This document shows, piece by piece, positions 6,936 to 38,376 of a stretch of DNA of 64,000 nt. The DNA lies in the NCBI GenBank assembly GCA_035508155.1, contig DATJNM010000074.1:15-64014 (forward strand), given 5' to 3'. Origin of the DNA: Candidatus Sulfopaludibacter sp. (lineage in GTDB: Bacteria > Verrucomicrobiota > Verrucomicrobiia > Limisphaerales > UBA11358). Position 1 is the stretch's first letter, and each line of letters begins with the position of its first letter. Below the pieces are notes generated by a model that saw nothing but the letters and a program-made list of their open reading frames with translations, had not been told where the DNA came from and made no database searches. Made by a program: the position numbers and the translations under genes.

Positions 6936-7027
6936 GGCGGTTGGATTGGCATGGGTACAGGCTGGTGGGGCGGGGCTGTTGACGAGCCGGCTCGCGGGGA
7001 CGCTCACCCTGCCGAAAATGGCAAACC
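6936..7027. repeat. GC-rich structured palindromic element (core TGACGAGCCGGCTCGCGGG), copy 1
   Basis: Aligns over about 90 nt with 29649-29743. It contains the perfect 12-nt palindrome CGAGCCGGCTCG. Confidence 0.75.
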
Positions 7028-7033
7028 ATGTCC

Positions 7034-7534
7034 CTACCGTTGTGTTTCCTTTTTTGCCTTTTCTAAAAGTCGTTGTTCCAGGAAAAATTTTTGCAACAGC
7101 GCGCGGCACTCCAGCTCGCGCACGCCGGAGGTAATTTCACAACGATGATTTAACGTGGGCAATTGCAGCAGGTTCAGCGCACCACCGGCCGCCCCGGCCT
7201 TCGGATCACCGACGCCGAACACCACTCGCGTCAGCCGGGTGTGCACCACGGCCCCCGCACACATCGGACACGGCTCCTTGGTCACATACAGGGTGCCATC
7301 GGTCAGCCGCCAGTCGCCCATGACCTCCTCCGCCTGCGTGAGCGCAAGCATCTCCGCGTGGGCGGTCGCGTCTTTCAGTAATTCGACCTGGTTGCAGGCG
7401 CGGGCAATGACACGCCCTTCGCGCACAACCACCGCGCCGACCGGGACTTCGCCCGCCGCGTAAGCCTTGGCCGCCTGGCGCAGCGCCTCGCGCATGAAAT
7501 AGTCATCGCTGTGCAGGTCAATCACGGGCGCCAT
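7034..7534 (-). CDS. tadA: tRNA adenosine(34) deaminase
   Basis: HAEMLAL...PCPMCAGA deaminase zinc motifs; 166 aa. Confidence 0.9.
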   Translation of the reverse strand: MAPVIDLHSDDYFMREALRQAAKAYAAGEVPVGAVVVREGRVIARACNQVELLKDATAHAEMLALTQAEEVMGDWRLTDGTLYVTKEPCPMCAGAVVHTRLTRVVFGVGDPKAGAAGGALNLLQLPTLNHRCEITSGVRELECRALLQKFFLEQRLLEKAKKETQR

Positions 7535-13329: not shown

Positions 13330-14481
13330 CTATTCATGGACACGGATCAGGGTTTTGATGGCGTGATTGCCGGCGGCCATCTTCTTGAACAATTCCGGCA
13401 ACCGGCTGAGCAGACATTCGCCGTCCACAAAATCCCGCGCGCGAATCAGGCCGGCCTCGATCAATTCCAACGCCCGCCGGATGGCACGTGGCGTGTGATG
13501 GAAACTCGCCAGCAGGGTCAGGCTGGAATAATGAATCAATTCCGTGTCGAATGACGCCTTCGTGCCGGAGGGACAACCGCCAAAAAAATTGACCGACCCG
13601 CCTTTGCGGACGAGTTGCACGGCCGCTTCCCAGGTCTCAGGCCGGCCCACGGCTTCAATGACCACGTCAAATCGGGAGGGCCGCCGCGTCGGCGACCCCG
13701 AAATTCGGGACGGCGGCACGCCGTCCCTCCCAATCACGGCCTTGACCACGTCGCCGTCCTTTCCAACCTCAAAGACTTTTCCCGCGCCCACCCGCCGCGC
13801 GGTCTGCAATCTTTTTTCTCCGCGCCCGGCTATCGACACATTACAACCGGCGTTTTTCGCCAAGGCCACGAACATCAGGCCGATCGGGCCGGCGCCAATG
13901 ACCAGCACGTTTTGGCCGGTGCTCAGATTTGTGTCTGCCACTCCCTGGACAACACAGGCGAGCGGCTCGACGAGCGCGGCGTCACGGAAATCGGTTTCCG
14001 GTTTGAGCCGCAATAGGTTCTGCTGGACGATCCGCGCGGGAATGACAAGGGATTCGGCGTAAGCGCCGTTCAGGAACTGCAAATCTTCGCAGAGATTTTC
14101 CTGGCTGCAACGGCAGTGAAAACAGTCACCGCACGGCGCGGAGTTGGCCGCTACGACGCGGTCGCCGATTTTCCATGTCTCGATTGTCTGGGTCGGGTGC
14201 GTTACTCCGTGCGCGCCGTTTTTTTTGGCGGAATGTGCGGCGGGCAAGGGACTGCCCGTCCCACCACCGGCAACCTCGGAAATCACGCCGGCCAGTTCGT
14301 GGCCAAAGACCGCGGGCGGCACGATCATTTTGGCGTGGTAGCCGCGTTTGAATACCTTCAAATCCGTGCCACAGGTGAGCGCAGCCTCGATGCGGATACG
14401 AACTTCGCCTGGTTTCAACGGCGGCGGTTCGAGTTCCTCGATTTGAATCTGTCCCCGGCCGTGAAGGATGGCGGCTTTCAC
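13330..14481 (-). CDS. Zinc-dependent alcohol/polyol dehydrogenase (MDR family)
   Basis: GHELAG...GDRV...CGDCFHCR zinc sites and a GAGPIGL Rossmann motif. It carries two atypical inserts (see repeats). Confidence 0.85.
   Translation of the reverse strand: MKAAILHGRGQIQIEELEPPPLKPGEVRIRIEAALTCGTDLKVFKRGYHAKMIVPPAVFGHELAGVISEVAGGGTGSPLPAAHSAKKNGAHGVTHPTQTIETWKIGDRVVAANSAPCGDCFHCRCSQENLCEDLQFLNGAYAESLVIPARIVQQNLLRLKPETDFRDAALVEPLACVVQGVADTNLSTGQNVLVIGAGPIGLMFVALAKNAGCNVSIAGRGEKRLQTARRVGAGKVFEVGKDGDVVKAVIGRDGVPPSRISGSPTRRPSRFDVVIEAVGRPETWEAAVQLVRKGGSVNFFGGCPSGTKASFDTELIHYSSLTLLASFHHTPRAIRRALELIEAGLIRARDFVDGECLLSRLPELFKKMAAGNHAIKTLIRVHE
13674..13731. repeat. GC-rich palindrome (GGGAGGG...CCCTCCC family) inside the ADH gene
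   Basis: GGGAGGGCCGCCGCGTCGGCGACCCCGAAATTCGGGACGGCGGCACGCCGTCCCTCCC. Homologous to the intergenic copy at 54649-54702. It encodes ...DGVPPSRISGSPTRRPS... Confidence 0.75.
14191..14265. repeat. GC-rich element (GGTAGGGCG...GGCAGAGGACTGCCCGCCCTACC family) inside the ADH gene
   Basis: GGTCGGGTGCGTTACTCCGTGCGCGCCG...GCGGCGGGCAAGGGACTGCCCGTCCCACC aligns with 21097-21152 and, inverted, with 19609-19698. It is 75 nt (25 codons) and encodes GGTGSPLPAAHSAKKNGAHGVTHPT. Confidence 0.8.
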
Positions 14482-17275: not shown

Positions 17276-18137
17276 CGGGCGCGCCATTGCCGCGCAAATC
17301 CAGCGTGAACTGGCCGGGCGCATCGCCGCGTTGAAAGAGCGCGGGATCGTGCCCGGCCTCGCCTTTGTGCGCGTCGGCGAGGATCCCGCCTCCAGGGTTT
17401 ACGTCGGCCGCAAGGAAAAGGCCTGCGCCGAGCTTGGAATTTTTTCGGAAACGCACGTTCTGCCGGAGCAAACCCCTGAAAGTGATTTGCTCGCGTTGCT
17501 GGAAAGACTGAACGCCGATTCGCGCGTACAGGGGGTTCTCGTCCAGGCCCCTTTGCCAAAGCAAATCCGGGAGTCCGTCGTTTATGCGACCGTGTCGCCG
17601 CAAAAGGACGTGGATGGGTTCCATCCGGTCAACGTCGGCAAATTGATGCTGGGCGACCCAACGGGTTTCCAGCCCTGCACCCCGGCGGGTGTCCGCGAGC
17701 TGCTGGTCCGCTCGCTGGTGAACACGCGCGGTGCGGAGGTGGTGATTCTGGGCCGCGGCAACATCGTGGGCAAACCGATGGCCGCGATGCTTTGTCAAAA
17801 AGACAAAAATGCAAACGCCACCGTGACAATTTGCCACTCCGCCACCCGCGACCTCGCGGCCCATTGCCGTCGCGCGGATATTTTGATCGCCGCGATGGGC
17901 GTCGCGGAATTTGTCAAAGCGGAGATGGTCAAGCCCGGGGCGACCGTGATTGACGTGGGTGTTAACCGCGTGAAGGATCCGACGGCGAAAAACGGTTCGC
18001 GGCTGGTGGGCGACGTGGATTTTGCCGCCGTCCAGAAAATCGCCGGTCAGATCACCCCCAACCCCGGCGGGGTCGGCCCGATGACCATTGCGATGTTGAT
18101 GCAAAACACCGTGCGGGCGGCGGAGACGACCTTGTAG
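17232..18137 (+). CDS. folD: Bifunctional methylenetetrahydrofolate dehydrogenase/cyclohydrolase
   Basis: LIDGRAIAAQI...PGLAFVRVGEDPAS.VYV..K...VQAPLP...GRGNIVGKP...NPGGVGPMT. The alternative GTG start is at 17259. Confidence 0.9.
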   Translation: MLTSEAPDSVGTLIDGRAIAAQIQRELAGRIAALKERGIVPGLAFVRVGEDPASRVYVGRKEKACAELGIFSETHVLPEQTPESDLLALLERLNADSRVQGVLVQAPLPKQIRESVVYATVSPQKDVDGFHPVNVGKLMLGDPTGFQPCTPAGVRELLVRSLVNTRGAEVVILGRGNIVGKPMAAMLCQKDKNANATVTICHSATRDLAAHCRRADILIAAMGVAEFVKAEMVKPGATVIDVGVNRVKDPTAKNGSRLVGDVDFAAVQKIAGQITPNPGGVGPMTIAMLMQNTVRAAETTL

Positions 18138-18203
18138 CGGCGATCTGTGATCGTCGCATTTTGAAACATGAAATAATCAGCGGCCGTCACAGACTGCCGC
18201 TAC
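18134..18203. repeat. GC-rich double-hairpin palindrome (GTAGCGGCG.TCTGTGA.CG.CGC family)
   Basis: GTAGCGGCGATCTGTGATCGTCGC ... GCGGCCGTCACAGACTGCCGCTAC. The folD stop codon TAG (18135-18137) lies inside the left arm. Confidence 0.8.
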
Positions 18204-18215
18204 AATAACAAGAAC

Positions 18216-19608: not shown

Positions 19609-19698
19609 GGGTAGGGCAGGTAGTCCTCTGCCCGCTGCGACCGTGGAGAACGGCACGCACGGACTCCGATGAATCGCGAGCGGCTGGCGCGTTCTACC
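19609..19698. repeat. GC-rich element (GGTAGGGCG... family), inverted copy with internal insertion
   Basis: GGGTAGGGCAGGTAGTCCTCTGCCCGCTGC...GGCGCGTTCTACC is the reverse complement of the 21097-21152 type. Confidence 0.7.
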
Positions 19699-19767: not shown

Positions 19768-21042
19768 ATGTCTCGGCTGCCGTTTGAATTCCTCCTCGCG
19801 CTGCGCTATCTGCGGCCCAAACGGACGTTCGTCTCCATCATCACGCTCATTTCCGTCGTCGGCGTCGCCCTCGGCGTGGCCGTGCTCATCATCGTCATCA
19901 GCGTCATGAGCGGATTCGACCACGATCTGCGTGCAAGAATCCTCGGTTTCAACGCCCACCTGCGCATCGTGGCGAACGGTGAAACCATGCAGAACTACGA
20001 CACGGTGATGAATCTGGTTTCTTCGAATAGAAATGTGGTCGGTGTGGCGCCATATGTCCTGGGCCCGGTGCTCATGGAAACGGAACCGGCCGGCAACCAA
20101 CAGCCGTTCTTTGCCGTGCCGTACTTGCGGGGCGCGGATCCTGCCCGCGAAAATGCGGTGAGCATGTTGCCCAAAAGCATCATCGCCGGAAAGTTCGACC
20201 TGAGCCGGCGCGGTCTGGTCATCGGCAGCGCGCTGGCCCAAAGCCTGAATCTGGCGGTCGGCGACCGGGTGGCGATTTATTCGCCGGACGAGTTGAAGAA
20301 AATGAAGGAACACCGGGGCAAATCGGACGAGGAGGCCGTCCTGCCGGATGATTACACCGTCACAGGCATTTTCGATGTGGGCTACTACGATTACAACTAT
20401 TCCATCGCCGTCACCTCGCTCGAAAACGCGCAGGAGCTTTACGACCTCGGCGACAGCGTGCATGGGTTGACGGTGATGTTGCGAGATCCCTATCAGGCAC
20501 CGGCGGTGGCCAAGGAACTGGCGGCCGTGTTGGGGCCGGGCTATGCCGTCACCACCTGGATGCAGGAAAATTCCGCCATTCTCGGCGCCGTGCTCGTTGA
20601 AAAAAATGTGATGTTTTACCTGCTGTTCTTCATCGTCATTGTGGCGGCGCTGTGCATTCTGAGCGCGCAAATCACCTTCGTGGTCCAGAAGACGCGCGAA
20701 ATCGGCATGTTGAAGGCGCTCGGCGCCACCCACCGGCAAATCTCCGGCGTGTTTCTTGCTCAAAGCGCCATCATCGGCGTATTAGGCGTGCTCATCGGCT
20801 ACGGTCTCGGGATCCTCGCGCTGACCTATCGCAATGAATTTCTGCACGTCATGAACCGGCTGACGGGCTGGGAGCTTTTTCCCGCCAAAATCTACGGCTT
20901 CAGCGAACTGCCGGCGATCATTGATGTCCGGGACATCATGCTGATTTGCGGAAGTTCGTTCGTCATTTGCATATTGGGTGGTGTGCTCCCTGCGTGGCGC
21001 GCCGGCCGTCTGAAACCCGTGGAGGCGTTGCGTTATGAGTAA
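19768..21042 (+). CDS. Lipoprotein-releasing system permease, LolC/LolE family (FtsX-like)
   Basis: MSRLPFEFLLALRYLRPKRTFVSIITLISVVGVALGV plus a C-terminal FtsX domain. Confidence 0.85.
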   Translation: MSRLPFEFLLALRYLRPKRTFVSIITLISVVGVALGVAVLIIVISVMSGFDHDLRARILGFNAHLRIVANGETMQNYDTVMNLVSSNRNVVGVAPYVLGPVLMETEPAGNQQPFFAVPYLRGADPARENAVSMLPKSIIAGKFDLSRRGLVIGSALAQSLNLAVGDRVAIYSPDELKKMKEHRGKSDEEAVLPDDYTVTGIFDVGYYDYNYSIAVTSLENAQELYDLGDSVHGLTVMLRDPYQAPAVAKELAAVLGPGYAVTTWMQENSAILGAVLVEKNVMFYLLFFIVIVAALCILSAQITFVVQKTREIGMLKALGATHRQISGVFLAQSAIIGVLGVLIGYGLGILALTYRNEFLHVMNRLTGWELFPAKIYGFSELPAIIDVRDIMLICGSSFVICILGGVLPAWRAGRLKPVEALRYE

Positions 21043-21052
21043 AAAAATGGGG

Positions 21053-21190
21053 AACATTCAACATTTAACATCCAACCTCCAGCAACCAACGATTGCGGTA
21101 GGGCGCGCCACTCCATGCACGCCGCGGCGGGCAGAGGACTGCCCGCCCTACCACTGGGTGTTGAATGTTGAACGTTGGAAGTTGAATGTT
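21053..21190. repeat. Composite element: AACATTC-heptamer palindrome arms (21053-21096, 21153-21190) enclosing a GGTAGGGCG-family element (21097-21152)
   Basis: Left arm AACATTC AACATTT AACATCC AACCTCC AGCAACC AACGATT. Right arm ...GGTGTTGAATGTTGAACGTTGGAAGTTGAATGTT. The centre is GGTAGGGCGCGCCACTCCATGCACGCCGCGGCGGGCAGAGGACTGCCCGCCCTACC. Confidence 0.8.
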
Positions 21191-21216
21191 TTATTCCGTT
21201 CCCGCGGAGGCCCGCC

Positions 21217-22885: not shown

Positions 22886-22888
22886 CCT

Positions 22889-22913
22889 GTAGCGTCGGTC
22901 TGTGACCGTCGCC
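22889..22913. repeat. Half-copy (single hairpin arm) of the GTAGCGGCG family
   Basis: GTAGCGTCGGTCTGTGACCGTCGCC lies immediately after the rhomboid stop codon. Confidence 0.6.
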
Positions 22914-23014
22914 GTTTCCCGGTGTTCCGGGAGCGCCGTTGCCAACCATCGTCCTTGGGCGCGCTGAAGCGAAAGCGGCTCGACACCTGTTCTCCGCCCT
23001 TTTACCCTCGCCCT

Positions 23015-24421
23015 GTGATAACGCGCTATTCCCGGCCGGAAATGCGGGCCATCTGGACCGACGAAAACAAGCTTCGCCTCTGGCTTCAAATCGAGCTGCT
23101 GGCCGGCGAAGCCCTGGTCAAAGAGCGCATCGTACCTCGAGCCGATTTCGCCAAAATCAAACGCGGCGCGGACAAATGGTTCGCCAATCTGCCCGGCCTC
23201 GTGCTCCGCCAGAAAGAACTGGAAAGGACGCTTAACCACGACGTCATCGGCTTTACCACCGCGGTCGCCGAGAAAATTGATGGGCAAAGAGCAGATGTTG
23301 TGGCGGTCTGTGACCGCCGGGCGGAAAATCAGCGACGGTCGCAGACCGCTGCTAAAAACGCCAGCCGCTGGTTCCACTTCGGCCTGACCAGCAGCGACAT
23401 TATTGACACTGCGTTCGCTGTCCAGATGGTCCAAAGCGCCGATATCCTGATCCAGGATGTGCGGACCGTTCGTGCTTCCATTGCGAAACAGGCGCGCCAA
23501 TACAAGTCTACCCCCTGCATCGGCCGCAGCCACGGCATCCATGCCGAACCGACCACCTTCGGGCTGAAACTCGCGCTGATGTACGACGAATTTGGCCGCG
23601 CGCTCCGGCGCCTTGAACGCACGCGCGGGGACGTTGCCATCGGCAAACTCAGCGGCGCGGTTGGCACCAGCGCGCATCTTTCGCCGCGCATCGAGGCTGC
23701 GGTCTGCAAAAAGCTTGGGTTGCGTCCGGCGCCGATTGCCACCCAGGTCGTCCAGCGTGACATTCACGCCGAATTCATGACCACGCTGGCGCTGGTCGGC
23801 GCGAGCATCGAACGCTGGGCCGTCGAGTTCCGTCATCTCCAGCGCACGGAAGTGCTCGAAGCCGAGGAACCGTTTAGTCAAGGTCAGAAAGGCAGCAGCG
23901 CCATGCCGCACAAGCGCAATCCCATCACTTGGGAACGCCTGACCGGGCTCGCTCGCGTGCTCCGCGGCAACGCCCTGGCCGCGCTGGAAAACGTCGCCCT
24001 CTGGCACGAACGCGACATCAGCCACAGCAGCGTCGAACGCATCATCTTTCCCGACTCGTGCACCTTGCTGGATTACATGCTGGGGCTGCTCACGCGGCTG
24101 ATGGACGGCCTCGCCGTTTATCCGGAGAACATGCGCAAAAACCTCGGTCTCTCGCTCGGCATGTGGAATTCGCAGACGGTCCTGCTGGCGCTCATCAAAA
24201 AGGGCCTCACTCGCGAAGCGGCCTACAAACTCGTTCAAGACGCCGCGATGAAGACCTGGGAAGTCAAGCACACTGGCCGTGATAACGCCGACTTTGTCCA
24301 GCAATTGAAAGCCGAGCCGGCGGTAGCCAGGCATTTCAGGCCGGGCGAGCTGGAAAAACTTTGCTCGCTGGAATTCCATTTCAAGGAAGTGAACGGCCGG
24401 TTCAAGAAACTGGGACTTTAA
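23015..24421 (+). CDS. purB: Adenylosuccinate lyase
   Basis: A GTG start gives VITRYSRPEMRAIWTDENK. HFGLTSSD and SSAMPHKRNP signatures are present. It carries an atypical ~27-aa insert. Confidence 0.9.
   Translation: MITRYSRPEMRAIWTDENKLRLWLQIELLAGEALVKERIVPRADFAKIKRGADKWFANLPGLVLRQKELERTLNHDVIGFTTAVAEKIDGQRADVVAVCDRRAENQRRSQTAAKNASRWFHFGLTSSDIIDTAFAVQMVQSADILIQDVRTVRASIAKQARQYKSTPCIGRSHGIHAEPTTFGLKLALMYDEFGRALRRLERTRGDVAIGKLSGAVGTSAHLSPRIEAAVCKKLGLRPAPIATQVVQRDIHAEFMTTLALVGASIERWAVEFRHLQRTEVLEAEEPFSQGQKGSSAMPHKRNPITWERLTGLARVLRGNALAALENVALWHERDISHSSVERIIFPDSCTLLDYMLGLLTRLMDGLAVYPENMRKNLGLSLGMWNSQTVLLALIKKGLTREAAYKLVQDAAMKTWEVKHTGRDNADFVQQLKAEPAVARHFRPGELEKLCSLEFHFKEVNGRFKKLGL
23297..23355. 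repeat. GTAGCGGCG-family palindrome inserted in frame in purB
   Basis: GTTGTGGCGGTCTGTGACCGCCGGGCGGAAAATCAGCGACGGTCGCAGACCGCTGCTAA aligns with both arms of 18134-18203, including the shared AATCAGCG. It encodes ..VVAVCDRRAENQRRSQTAAK.. Confidence 0.8.
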
Positions 24422-29648: not shown

Positions 29649-29743
29649 GGCGGAATCTTGGTACTGGCCTGCTTTGGTGGGCGAGGCTACTGACGAGCCG
29701 GCTCGCGGGTATGCTCGCCCCACCGAAACAGGCAAAGTAACCC
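29649..29743. repeat. GC-rich structured palindromic element (core TGACGAGCCGGCTCGCGGG), copy 2
   Basis: GGTGGGCGAGGCTACTGACGAGCCGGCTCGCGGGTATGCTCGCCCCACC with flanks aligning to 6936-7027. Confidence 0.75.
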
Positions 29744-29868
29744 ACTACCGGAACCTTTTCCGCTTCTATTTCCATAACCGCGCCTTGACAGAAGGCGTTT
29801 CAATGTTAATCTCCGCGCTCCGTCAAACGGAGATTTTCCCGCGCACCAGGCGCGAATTGAACCGATTT

Positions 29869-30412: not shown

Positions 30413-30420
30413 ACGTGAAA

Positions 30421-30516
30421 AACATTCAACATTCAACATTCAACAGCGAACGTCGAATGACGGCAGGAATACACCGTCGCTGGATGTTGGGCGTTGAATG
30501 TTGGTTGTTGAATGTT
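30421..30516. repeat. Heptamer-periodic imperfect palindrome (AACATTC family)
   Basis: Left arm AACATTC x3, AACAGCG AACGTCG AATGACGG. Right arm CCGTCGC TGGATGT TGGGCGT TGAATGT TGGTTGT TGAATGTT. Confidence 0.85.
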
Positions 30517-30783
30517 CCCCAATTTGTTCTGATCTTCGCCATCTGGCTGTACCGCTGGACGGTCTCGCCCCTGCTCGTTTTCCTGTTCGGGCCCACCGGC
30601 GGCTGCCGTTTCACGCCCAGTTGCTCGCAATACGCGGTGGACGCCATCCATTCGCAGGGCGTGTGGGCCGGCAGCGGGTTGGCGCTGCGGCGGATTTGCC
30701 GCTGCCATCCGTGGGGTGAGGGCGGGTACGATCCGGCGCCGGAACCGGAAGTCACAAGTCAGAAGTCAGAAGTCAGAACCTAA
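30484..30783 (+). CDS. yidD: Membrane protein insertion efficiency factor YidD
   Basis: YRWTVSPLL....[15 protein letters not shown]...G...[20 protein letters not shown]. The start is uncertain because the N-terminus lies in the repeat arm. Confidence 0.85.
30749..30779. repeat. Tandem heptamers AAGTCAC AAGTCAG x3, forming the yidD C-terminal tail
   Basis: Encodes ...[17 protein letters not shown], followed by the stop codon. Confidence 0.9.
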
Positions 30784-38260: not shown

Positions 38261-38368
38261 AACAATTGTGAACATCGAACGTTCAACATTCACCGCCCAA
38301 CATTCAAGAAAACGCCCGCGATAATGCTTGCTGCACATTCGGTGTTGAATGTTGATTGTTGCCTGTTC
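38261..38368. repeat. Heptamer-periodic imperfect palindrome (AACATTC family)
   Basis: Left arm GAACATC GAACGTT CAACATT CACCGCC CAACATT. Right arm CATTCGGTGTTGAATGTTGATTGTTG. Confidence 0.75.
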
Positions 38369-38376
38369 ATCTTTCA

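What the first reader, a model, noticed from the sequence alone, without database searches (positions are those of the whole stretch)
23283..23363. Palindromic repeat element inserted in frame in purB, next to a catalytic signature
PurB reads ...TTAVAEKIDGQRADVVAVCDRRAENQRRSQTAAKNASRWFHFGLTSSD... In the adenylosuccinate lyases I recall (for example Bacillus ...[21 protein letters not shown]), the segment between 'E..' and 'W.H.GLTS' is only a few residues long. Here about 27 extra residues are encoded by GTTGTGGCGGTCTGTGACCGCCGGGCGGAAAATCAGCGACGGTCGCAGACCGCTGC. This is the same double-hairpin element found intergenically at 18134-18203 (both arms plus the shared AATCAGCG) and as a half-copy at 22889-22913. 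The reading frame is preserved. The insert sits directly before the conserved H-[FY]-G-L-T-S-x-D region of the fumarase/aspartase superfamily. The only precedent I know for in-frame invasion of enzymes by palindromic repeats is the Rickettsia palindromic elements.
Basis: partly seen in the sequence, partly recalled or inferred. Interest (0 to 1): 0.65.

Follow-up and report, generated by a model that had tools for sequence, protein, structure and literature searches.

The report
REP repeat translated inside purB
A small mobile DNA hairpin pair (a GTAG-type REP doublet, normally moved by a RAYT transposase) sits in frame inside the purine enzyme gene purB and adds 24 amino acids to a loop; this is real, but in-frame REPs were already described in the same phylum in 2013.

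Summary
The window's purB (23015-24421, 468 aa) has 24 more residues than its closest orthologues (444 aa), just before the conserved SRWFHFGLTSSD segment.

- **What the insert is.** Sixty of the 72 extra bases (23297-23356) are a doublet of 23-nt palindromes of the form GTAG + GCGGCGGTC / TRT / GACCGCCG. The same unit occurs at 18134-18203 and 22889-22911 (5 arms found, 0.01 expected by chance).
- **Family.** This is a GTAG-type REP family. Its exact 20-mer occurs in at least 120 genome stretches from Verrucomicrobiota and Acidobacteriota, mostly as inverted doublets. It flanks RAYT (Y1/HUH transposase) genes in five relatives.
- **Other in-frame copies.** The same doublet lies in frame in LeuRS, XseA, MetH, RNase R, a copper ATPase, a polyketide synthase (PKS), an aminotransferase and Cas9.
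- **Gene state.** purB is under strong purifying selection (dN/dS about 0.07). The window's copy has lost both GTAG heads, so it is probably an immobile relic.
- **Second family.** An unrelated palindromic repeat family occupies the same PurB loop in other lineages.
- **Prior work.** Di Nocera et al. 2013 described in-frame GTAG REPs, most abundant in the verrucomicrobium Opitutus terrae.

Verdict: a new member of a known kind. Open points are the patchy gain/loss pattern and the unusually conserved arms in some alleles.

The parts
23015..24421 (+). purB (adenylosuccinate lyase), 468 aa, GTG start
   Evidence: TIGR00928 score 475 bits. PDB ASL matches at E = 1e-127. Core dN/dS 0.06-0.08 against orthologues.
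23282..23296 (+). 15-nt extension (GGGCAAAGAGCAGAT; G90-D94) 5' of the REP doublet. It is present only in the 468-aa alleles and its origin is unknown.
   Evidence: DNA comparison of the site in the window, L004 and L001.
23297..23319 (+). Left REP arm, GTTGTGGCGGTCTGTGACCGCCG. The head has degenerated from GTAG to GTTG. Encodes VVAVCDRR.
   Evidence: 3 mismatches to the family consensus GTAGCGGCGGTCTATGACCGCCG.
23320..23332 (+). Spacer GGCGGAAAATCAG. It shares GAAA(A/T)AATCAG with the spacer of the doublet at 18134-18203.
23333..23355 (-). Right REP arm, read on the minus strand as TTAGCAGCGGTCTGCGACCGTCG. The head has degenerated from GTAG to TTAG. Encodes RRSQTAAK on the plus strand.
   Evidence: 5 mismatches to the consensus. 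Pairs with the left arm in the predicted hairpin.
23363..23398 (+). Conserved SRWFHFGLTSSD segment of the fumarase/aspartase superfamily, starting two codons after the insert
   Evidence: R118, W119 and H121-D128 are invariant, and S117 and F120 nearly so, in 50 orthologues. Aligned to [10 protein letters not shown] of 1f1o.
18134..18203 (.). Full REP doublet (arms 18134-18156 + and 18181-18203 -). Its left GTAG head supplies the TAG stop codon of folD.
   Evidence: An orthologous, diverged copy lies at the same place in L001, L002, L005 and L007. RNA fold -37.9 kcal/mol, z = -7.1.
22889..22911 (+). Single REP (GTAGCGTCGGTCTGTGACCGTCG), 3 nt after the rhomboid gene's stop codon and upstream of purB

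Best explanation
The insert is a doublet (REPIN-like, heads outward) of a GTAG-type REP. Each unit has a GTAG head, an 8-9-bp perfect stem (GCGGCGGTC/GACCGCCG) and a 3-nt loop (TRT).

**How it arrived (inferred).** REPs of this kind are mobilised in trans, as single-stranded hairpins, by a RAYT (TnpA-REP), a Y1/HUH tyrosine transposase. One such doublet landed in the purB reading frame, in the short loop between the N-terminal domain and the conserved SRWxHxGLTSxD segment.

**Why it persists.**
- Its length is a multiple of three.
- The frame GTA-GCG-GCG-GTC-TAT-GAC-CGC-CG... has no stop codon.
- The loop tolerates extra length.

The doublet is therefore simply translated. With the unexplained 15-nt extension it adds 24 hydrophilic, arginine-rich residues in the window, and the enzyme stays functional. 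It is best read as a tolerated passenger, not an adaptation.

**State of the window's copy.** Both GTAG heads are mutated (GTTG and TTAG) and its arms have diverged at the background rate. It is probably an immobile relic.

**What is shown and what is inferred.**
- Shown: identity as a REP doublet, the family's association with RAYT genes, recurrent in-frame insertion in other genes, and purifying selection on purB.
- Inferred: the transposition mechanism, by analogy with the E. coli and Stenotrophomonas TnpA-REP work; that the insert is translated; that it is neutral.
For: - **Repeat significance.** Arm consensus gives 5 hits against 0.01 expected in the window.
- **Clean copy in an orthologue.** The L001 allele carries an almost perfect copy, TGTAGCGGCGGTCTATGACCGCCGG-AAAAGAAATCAG-CGACGGTCACAGACCGCCGCTACA. 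Closest relatives L002 and L005 have the empty site ATCCACGACAA(T/C)GCC.
- **Family spread.** They hold 234 arms and 82 convergent doublets, with a spacer mode of 21-24 nt. Spacers are alike within a genome and differ between genomes.
- **RAYT association.** Y1_Tnp (PF01797) genes are flanked by these REPs in L041, L010 and L080 and by two perfect consensus REPs in L250/L251. L252 has a stem-variant REP. Public sources name these proteins REP-associated tyrosine transposase or RayT.
- **Other in-frame copies.** The same doublet lies in frame in Pfam-verified LeuRS, XseA, MetH, aminotransferase, PKS, Cu-ATPase and RNase R and in Cas9.
- **Gene function.** purB core dN/dS is 0.05-0.08 with or without the insert. 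Residues H75, H121 and the GSSAMPHKRNP loop are invariant.
- **Loop disorder.** In an AF2 model, residues 92-113 have pLDDT below 50.
- **Erosion in progress.** Some alleles keep only the right arm (L007, P0043, P0028).
- **Head mutation.** GTTG abolished cleavage by the Stenotrophomonas RAYT in vitro (PMC8266576).
- **Prior description.** In-frame GTAG REPs in ORFs are reported in PMC3733652.
Against: - No RAYT gene lies in the 64-kb window. The source genome's copy number cannot be counted, so activity in this genome is unproven.
- No expression or protein data show that the insert is translated and kept.
- The structural model is of low quality (mean pLDDT 67.9; TM 0.60-0.64 normalised to the query, 0.64-0.69 normalised to the target, against the closest bacterial ASL structures). 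Surface exposure is therefore not shown.
- The insertion junction cannot be reconstructed to the nucleotide. The net gain is 57 nt in 463-aa alleles although the element is 60-61 nt.
- The arms of L001 and L004 are identical (0 differences in 46 nt, P = 2.5e-4 given gene divergence). A purely neutral passenger does not predict this.
Confidence: 0.85

Rival explanations
1. The insert has been co-opted. Either the mRNA or DNA hairpin (translation pausing, mRNA stability, a RAYT or other protein binding site) or the Arg-rich peptide next to the active site is under selection. On this reading the element is kept in purB for a function.
For: - The REP arms of L001 and L004 are identical while the genes differ at 16.5% of core nucleotides and their spacers differ at 6 of 13 positions.
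- Insert dS (0.13-0.46) is below core dS (0.8-0.9).
- All three stem substitutions in the window copy keep G.U pairing in the sense RNA.
- The insert has persisted across lineages separated by dS of about 0.8.
Against: - Most close relatives lack the insert altogether (97 of 114 alleles that could be classified).
- Half-deleted and expanded versions exist.
- The window copy diverged at the background rate (6 of 46 positions).
- The spacer peptide is hypervariable.
- The same doublet sits in many unrelated proteins, and a different repeat family sits in the same loop. That pattern fits tolerance rather than function.
Confidence: 0.1
2. The loop is a recurrent landing site. The element has been inserted, excised or exchanged many times independently, as a dynamic polymorphism. 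On this reading there was no single ancient insertion followed by decay.
For: - Insert-bearing alleles are scattered over the PurB tree, needing a minimum of 12 state changes.
- Several insert-bearing alleles are closest to empty alleles. P0006 differs from empty P0041 at 13 positions and from the nearest insert allele at 23. P0002 differs from P0014 at 20 against 31.
- L001 and L004 carry consensus-perfect left arms, as young copies would.
- A second repeat family uses the same loop.
Against: - All insert alleles share the same 3' junction, the same orientation (spacer end AATCAG next to the right arm), the same CGACGG variant and the I-D start. This points to common descent of the insert.
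- Tree support is weak, with bootstraps of 67% or less on the DNA tree.
- No recombination tract is visible around the site.
- All 97 empty alleles have exactly three residues, so they do not look like products of repeated deletion.
Confidence: 0.3
3. The segment is a lineage-specific loop that arose in situ by slippage or duplication, or it is an assembly or pseudogene artefact. The resemblance to the repeat would then be coincidental.
For: None beyond the fact that this loop varies in length among PurB proteins.
Against: - The nucleotide match to an interspersed family is far beyond chance.
- Orthologous alleles have near-perfect REP doublets.
- The insert recurs in independent assemblies.
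- dN/dS of about 0.07 and invariant catalytic residues argue against a pseudogene.
Confidence: 0.02

Closest known systems
Intragenic GTAG-tagged REPs (Di Nocera, De Gregorio and Rocco 2013, BMC Genomics 14:522; PMC3733652), most numerous in Opitutus terrae (Verrucomicrobia)
   Same: - GTAG head plus a short perfect palindrome.
- Frequent inverted dimers that encode 20-30 residues when they lie inside ORFs.
- Association with RAYT genes.
- The GTAG head supplying TAG stop codons, as at folD here.
- The same phylum.
   Different: - The sequence family is different. The O. terrae intragenic peptides listed (e.g. VGPALAAG, GTGVPPV) differ from ours, and our peptides and DNA core are absent from their supplement.
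- purB is not among their listed target genes.
- Our family spans Verrucomicrobiota and Acidobacteriota with an identical 20-23-mer.
Rickettsia palindromic elements (RPE; Ogata et al. 2000, recalled from memory; summarised in PMC3733652)
   Same: Palindromic repeats inserted in frame into genes for functional proteins, and apparently tolerated in loops.
   Different: - RPE-4 and RPE-6 are CGTC-tagged REPs with no dedicated transposase, and RPE-1 is longer (PMC3733652).
- The host there is an obligate intracellular alphaproteobacterium with a reduced genome.
- Here the element is GTAG-tagged, RAYT-associated and found in free-living bacteria with large genomes.
REPIN-RAYT systems (Bertels and Rainey 2011, PMC3116915) and the group 3 REPtron of Stenotrophomonas maltophilia (PMC8266576)
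   Same: - Two inverted REPs plus a spacer behave as the replicating unit.
- A RAYT gene is flanked by REPs.
- The REP is 23 nt, with a GTAG head, an 8-bp perfect stem and a 3-nt loop, exactly as in REPSm.
   Different: - Those REPINs are described as essentially extragenic and lineage-specific.
- Here roughly 5% of sampled units lie in frame inside genes.
- The REP sequence is shared across phyla.

Membership tests
GTAG-type REP / REPIN-RAYT (REPtron) system | Conserved 5' GTAG tetranucleotide next to the palindrome | tested here: met
   Of 234 arms within 4 mismatches of the consensus in 120 genome loci, 223 keep the GTAG head. The head positions are over 90% conserved in the 231-arm profile. 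The window copies at 18134, 18203 and 22889 have GTAG. The orthologous purB copies in L001 and L004 have GTAG on both arms.
GTAG-type REP / REPIN-RAYT (REPtron) system | Intact GTAG heads on the window's own purB copy, needed for RAYT cleavage | tested here: not met
   The left head is GTTG and the right head is TTAG. GTTG abolished cleavage in the S. maltophilia system (PMC8266576). This copy is a degenerate member.
GTAG-type REP / REPIN-RAYT (REPtron) system | Short (20-40 nt) palindrome forming a stem-loop | tested here: met
   8-9-bp stem GCGGCGGTC/GACCGCCG with loop TRT. The single REP folds at -12.3 kcal/mol.
GTAG-type REP / REPIN-RAYT (REPtron) system | Interspersed and multi-copy | tested here: met
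   5 arms in the window against 0.01 expected. Copy number in the source genome cannot be tested from 64 kb.
GTAG-type REP / REPIN-RAYT (REPtron) system | Inverted doublets whose spacer is conserved within a genome (REPIN) | tested here: met
   82 convergent doublets against 8 divergent and 7 tandem. Same-genome spacers match in L047, L022 and L057/L058, and the window's two doublets share GAAA(A/T)AATCAG.
GTAG-type REP / REPIN-RAYT (REPtron) system | Cognate RAYT (Y1/HUH) gene flanked by the same REPs | tested here: met
   Found in L041, L010 (frameshifted), L080, L250/L251 (perfect consensus REPs on both sides) and L252 (variant REP). No RAYT lies in the window. Presence in the source genome cannot be tested.
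GTAG-type REP / REPIN-RAYT (REPtron) system | Predominantly extragenic location | tested here: inconclusive
   Seven to nine of about 155 sampled units lie inside Pfam-verified or probable genes. The remaining units were not checked against gene annotation.
Rickettsia palindromic elements (RPE) | In-frame insertion in ORFs that remain functional | tested here: met
   The frame is open and purB dN/dS is about 0.07.
Rickettsia palindromic elements (RPE) | Sequence family of the RPEs (CGTC-tagged for RPE-4 and RPE-6; the long RPE-1) | tested here: not met
   The element here is GTAG-tagged and 23 nt per unit. PMC3733652 classes the intragenic R. conorii repeats as CGTC REPs. No RPE sequence was aligned directly.
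MITE (non-autonomous derivative of a DDE insertion sequence) | Target-site duplication flanking terminal inverted repeats | tested here: not met
   The flanks are ...ATTGA|TGTAGC...GCTACA|AACGCC, with no direct repeat. Beyond the T before GTAG there is no conservation.
MITE (non-autonomous derivative of a DDE insertion sequence) | Ends matching those of a parent IS that encodes a DDE transposase | tested here: not met
   The only gene found bracketed by the arms is a 150-165-aa Y1_Tnp protein.
Intein or other self-removing protein insert | Splicing domain with conserved junction residues | tested here: not met
   The insert is 24 aa and repeat-encoded, with no domain hit. The TIGR00928 match spans residues 1-466 of the protein against a 436-position profile, and residues 93-116 have no counterpart in solved PurB structures.

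The most novel reading that the evidence does not exclude
The PurB loop between domain 1 and the SRWxHxGLTSxD segment may be a recurrent landing site, or safe harbour, for mobile hairpin repeats. RAYT-mobilised REP doublets, and independently a second palindromic family, would be repeatedly gained, refreshed to consensus and lost there. Intact copies inside the ORF would be kept at consensus by an active process, either RAYT-dependent re-copying or conversion, or selection on the hairpin. REPINs would then act as a standing generator of loop-length polymorphism in core enzymes across Verrucomicrobiota and Acidobacteriota.
Probability: 0.15. Interest if true: 0.6.

Novelty: new member of a known kind. 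Interest (0 to 1): 0.4.

Why it matters
This is a clean, well-delimited case of a mobile hairpin repeat being translated inside a core metabolic enzyme, a few residues from an active-site segment, in free-living bacteria.

- The comparison set is unusually rich: empty sites, full doublets, half-eroded copies, expanded spacers, and a second repeat family in the same loop.
- It extends the 2013 report of intragenic GTAG REPs to a new family shared across phyla, which also decorates LeuRS, MetH, XseA, RNase R and Cas9.
- The allele series could be used to test how REPINs are gained, maintained and lost, and how much loop insertion enzymes tolerate.
- For annotation, peptides such as VAAVYDRR...RRSQTAAT or ...GGHRPPLQ mark repeat-derived segments, not protein motifs.

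Tried and rejected
- **Peptide census.** A protein search with a synthetic REP-encoded peptide gave only 3 weak hits and was uninformative.
- **Independent contig.** A look-up of the contig encoding the near-identical P0001 found nothing on record.
- **Gene trees.** The protein NJ tree and a bootstrapped codon-DNA tree were too weakly supported to count gains and losses (splits 67% or less).
- **Recombination tract.** Sliding-window identity around the site showed no tract.
- **TAG stop supply.** I tested whether the GTAG head preferentially supplies TAG stops to long ORFs. The counts were 29 arms in the TAG frame against 27 and 13 in the other two frames, so there is no clear enrichment.
- **Structure model.** The AF2 model was mediocre (mean pLDDT 67.9; TM about 0.6-0.69 to ASL structures). 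It shows a low-confidence insert but cannot prove surface exposure.
- **Rfam.** There was no hit at the site or in the purB leader.
- **LeuRS against PDB.** The alignment was ambiguous because that region is variable anyway.
- **Rejected classifications.** MITE (no target-site duplication, Y1 rather than DDE partner), intein, and pseudogene.

Full report
**1. Observation**

The ORF 23015-24421 (+) is adenylosuccinate lyase, with a TIGR00928 score of 475 bits against a cutoff of 326. Its best solved relatives are bacterial PurB structures (1f1o, E = 2e-127). In those alignments query residues 93-116 have no counterpart, and the match resumes at SRWFHFGLTSSD.

The 120 closest orthologue clusters are Verrucomicrobiota/Limisphaerales-type metagenome genomes at 82-100% identity. 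Almost all are 444 aa, with three residues between AEKI and ASRW. The window has 27 residues there, a net gain of 24 aa.

The arm consensus GCGGCGGTCTGTGACCGTCGC, with up to 3 mismatches, hits five places in the window: 18137+, 18180-, 22892+, 23300+ and 23332-. Shuffles give 0.01. The alignment of the three loci also shows the shared spacer end AATCAG.

**2. Anatomy**

Orthologous alleles show the element in clean form.

- L001 (463 aa) reads ATTGA|TGTAGCGGCGGTCTATGACCGCCGG-AAAAGAAATCAG-CGACGGTCACAGACCGCCGCTACA|AACGCC.
- L002 and L005 (444 aa) read ATCCACGACAA(T/C)GCC at the empty site.

Each arm has a GTAG head, an 8-9-bp perfect stem and a TRT loop. The two arms are inverted with their heads outward.

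In the window the doublet spans 23297-23356 and encodes VVAVCDRR-AENQ-RRSQTAAK. It is preceded by 15 nt of unknown origin (23282-23296). The sense RNA folds into a 17-bp hairpin at -35.8 kcal/mol (z = -4.3). Both GTAG heads are mutated, to GTTG and TTAG, and the arms carry 3 and 5 mismatches to the consensus.

**3. Family**

- The hits come from Chthoniobacterales, Limisphaerales/Pedosphaera, Opitutia, Luteolibacter, Akkermansiaceae, many Terriglobia/Acidobacteriota and a few other bins.
- These loci hold 234 arms and 82 convergent doublets, with a spacer mode of 21-24 nt.
- Conservation stops sharply outside T-GTAG...CCG.
- Spacers differ between genomes but match within a genome.

Genes for 150-165-aa Y1_Tnp (PF01797) proteins with the HUH and Tyr motifs are bracketed by these REPs in several loci.

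- L041, L010 (frameshifted) and L080.
- L250/L251, where two perfect consensus REPs flank the gene. One source names this protein 'REP-associated tyrosine transposase [Verrucomicrobiota]'.
- L252, a Terriglobia contig with a REP variant that carries a compensating G/C swap in the stem.

The unit has the architecture of the 23-nt group 3 REP of Stenotrophomonas (GTAG head, 8-bp perfect stem, 3-nt loop). In that system GTTG abolishes cleavage (PMC8266576). The element is therefore a GTAG-type REP doublet of a REPIN/RAYT system. The window's purB copy is a degenerate and probably immobile member.

**4. Recurrent in-frame insertion**

Among about 155 sampled units, the same doublet lies in frame inside Pfam-verified genes:

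- LeuRS (L015)
- XseA (L029)
- MetH, in the linker between domains (L035)
- a class I/II aminotransferase (L077)
- a polyketide synthase, in the DH-KR linker (L104)
- a copper P-type ATPase (L109)
- RNase R (L114)

Probable cases are a TPR protein (L059) and one unassigned protein (L118). A Cas9 carries one as well (L252). The encoded modules are (P)VAAVYDRR...RRSQTAAT or ...GGHRPPLQ, depending on spacer length.

**5. State of purB**

Core dN/dS is 0.05-0.08 in every comparison, whether or not the insert is present. H75, H121 and the GSSAMPHKRNP loop are invariant. An AF2 model gives pLDDT below 50 for residues 92-113. The model is mediocre, however (mean pLDDT 67.9; TM 0.6-0.69 to ASL structures), so surface exposure is suggested but not shown.

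**6. History**

Fifteen of the 120 orthologue clusters carry REP-derived inserts at this site.

| Form | Length | Examples |
|---|---|---|
| Full doublet | 463 aa | P0004, P0006, P0008, P0009 |
| Full doublet plus 15-nt extension | 468 aa | window, P0002, P0003, P0005 |
| Longer spacer | 469-472 aa | P0081, P0112, P0114 |
| Right arm only | 445-454 aa | P0025, P0028, P0043 |

All share the 3' junction, the orientation and the I-D start. The window, L001 and L004 also share the CGACGG variant. This argues for common descent of the insert.

Two results pull the other way. Insert-bearing alleles are scattered on the PurB tree, needing at least 12 state changes, although support is weak. Some are closest to empty alleles: P0006 differs from empty P0041 at 13 positions and from the nearest insert allele at 23. 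No recombination tract is visible around the site.

The arms of L001 and L004 are identical (0 of 46 differences) although the genes differ at 16.5% of core sites (P = 2.5e-4). The window copy differs from both at 6 of 46 positions, which is the background rate. The orthologous REP doublet at the folD stop codon has decayed in every lineage. How the insert came to be distributed this way is unresolved.

**7. A second family in the same loop**

L003, L128 and L129 carry a different GC-rich hairpin insert at this site. Its core, GGAGCGCACGCGGCTCGCGTGC, is itself an interspersed repeat. It occurs in at least 120 metagenome stretches and forms 56 convergent doublets. The loop is therefore a permissive or preferred site for hairpin repeats.

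**8. Comparison with what is known**

Di Nocera et al. 2013 (PMC3733652) described GTAG- and CGTC-tagged REPs. They reported the RAYT association, the GTAG head supplying TAG stop codons, and REPs lying in frame within ORFs. [quoted passage not shown] Their supplementary lists do not contain this family's peptides or DNA core.

The finding is a new family and new target genes of a known phenomenon, not a new kind of system.

**9. Verdict**

Novelty: new member of a known kind. Interest is moderate (0.4), resting on the cross-phylum REP family, the double use of one enzyme loop by two repeat families, and the unexplained conservation and patchiness of the arms.

Noticed in passing
window 18133-18204: A full REP doublet whose GTAG head supplies the TAG stop codon of folD. 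An orthologous copy lies at the same place in L001, L002, L005 (collapsed to one hairpin) and L007, and each has diverged strongly.
   Followed up: partly
window 22888-22911: A single REP 3 nt after the rhomboid protease stop codon, upstream of purB. It is absent from that spot in L001, L002 and L005.
   Followed up: partly
window 21126-21151 (-), also 14237-14270 and 19610-19639: A second GTAG-headed hairpin family, GTAGGGCGGGCAGTCCTCTGCCCGCC, with several copies in the window.
   Followed up: no
window 21041-21192, 30419-30528, 38269-38369: Inverted arrays of the heptamer AACATTC/GAATGTT in intergenic regions form another repeat family.
   Followed up: no
window 6968-7039 and 29679-29750: A 72-nt direct repeat at 78% identity, of unknown nature (family D6).
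   Followed up: no
L252 1-3940 (Terriglobia contig): A RAYT gene flanked by REP clusters sits between cas1 and cas2 of a type II CRISPR-Cas locus. The cas9 gene itself carries an in-frame REP doublet (1232-1299; peptide kpvapvydrrekangegrrsqsgatdv).
   Followed up: partly
L003 5049-5156, L128 10265-10372, L129 6585-6647: A different palindromic repeat occupies the same PurB loop. Its core GGGGAGCGCACGCGGCTCGCGTGC is interspersed in at least 120 metagenome stretches, mostly as convergent doublets.
   Followed up: partly
window 22955-22995 (purB leader): The motif GCGCTGAAGCGAAAGCGGCTCGACACC is conserved upstream of purB in the window, L001, L004 and L007. It has no Rfam match.
   Followed up: no
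L008-L127 (genome scan): An identical 20-23-nt REP is shared by Verrucomicrobiota and Acidobacteriota genomes. This is unusual for REP/RAYT systems, which are usually described as lineage-specific and vertically inherited.
   Followed up: partly
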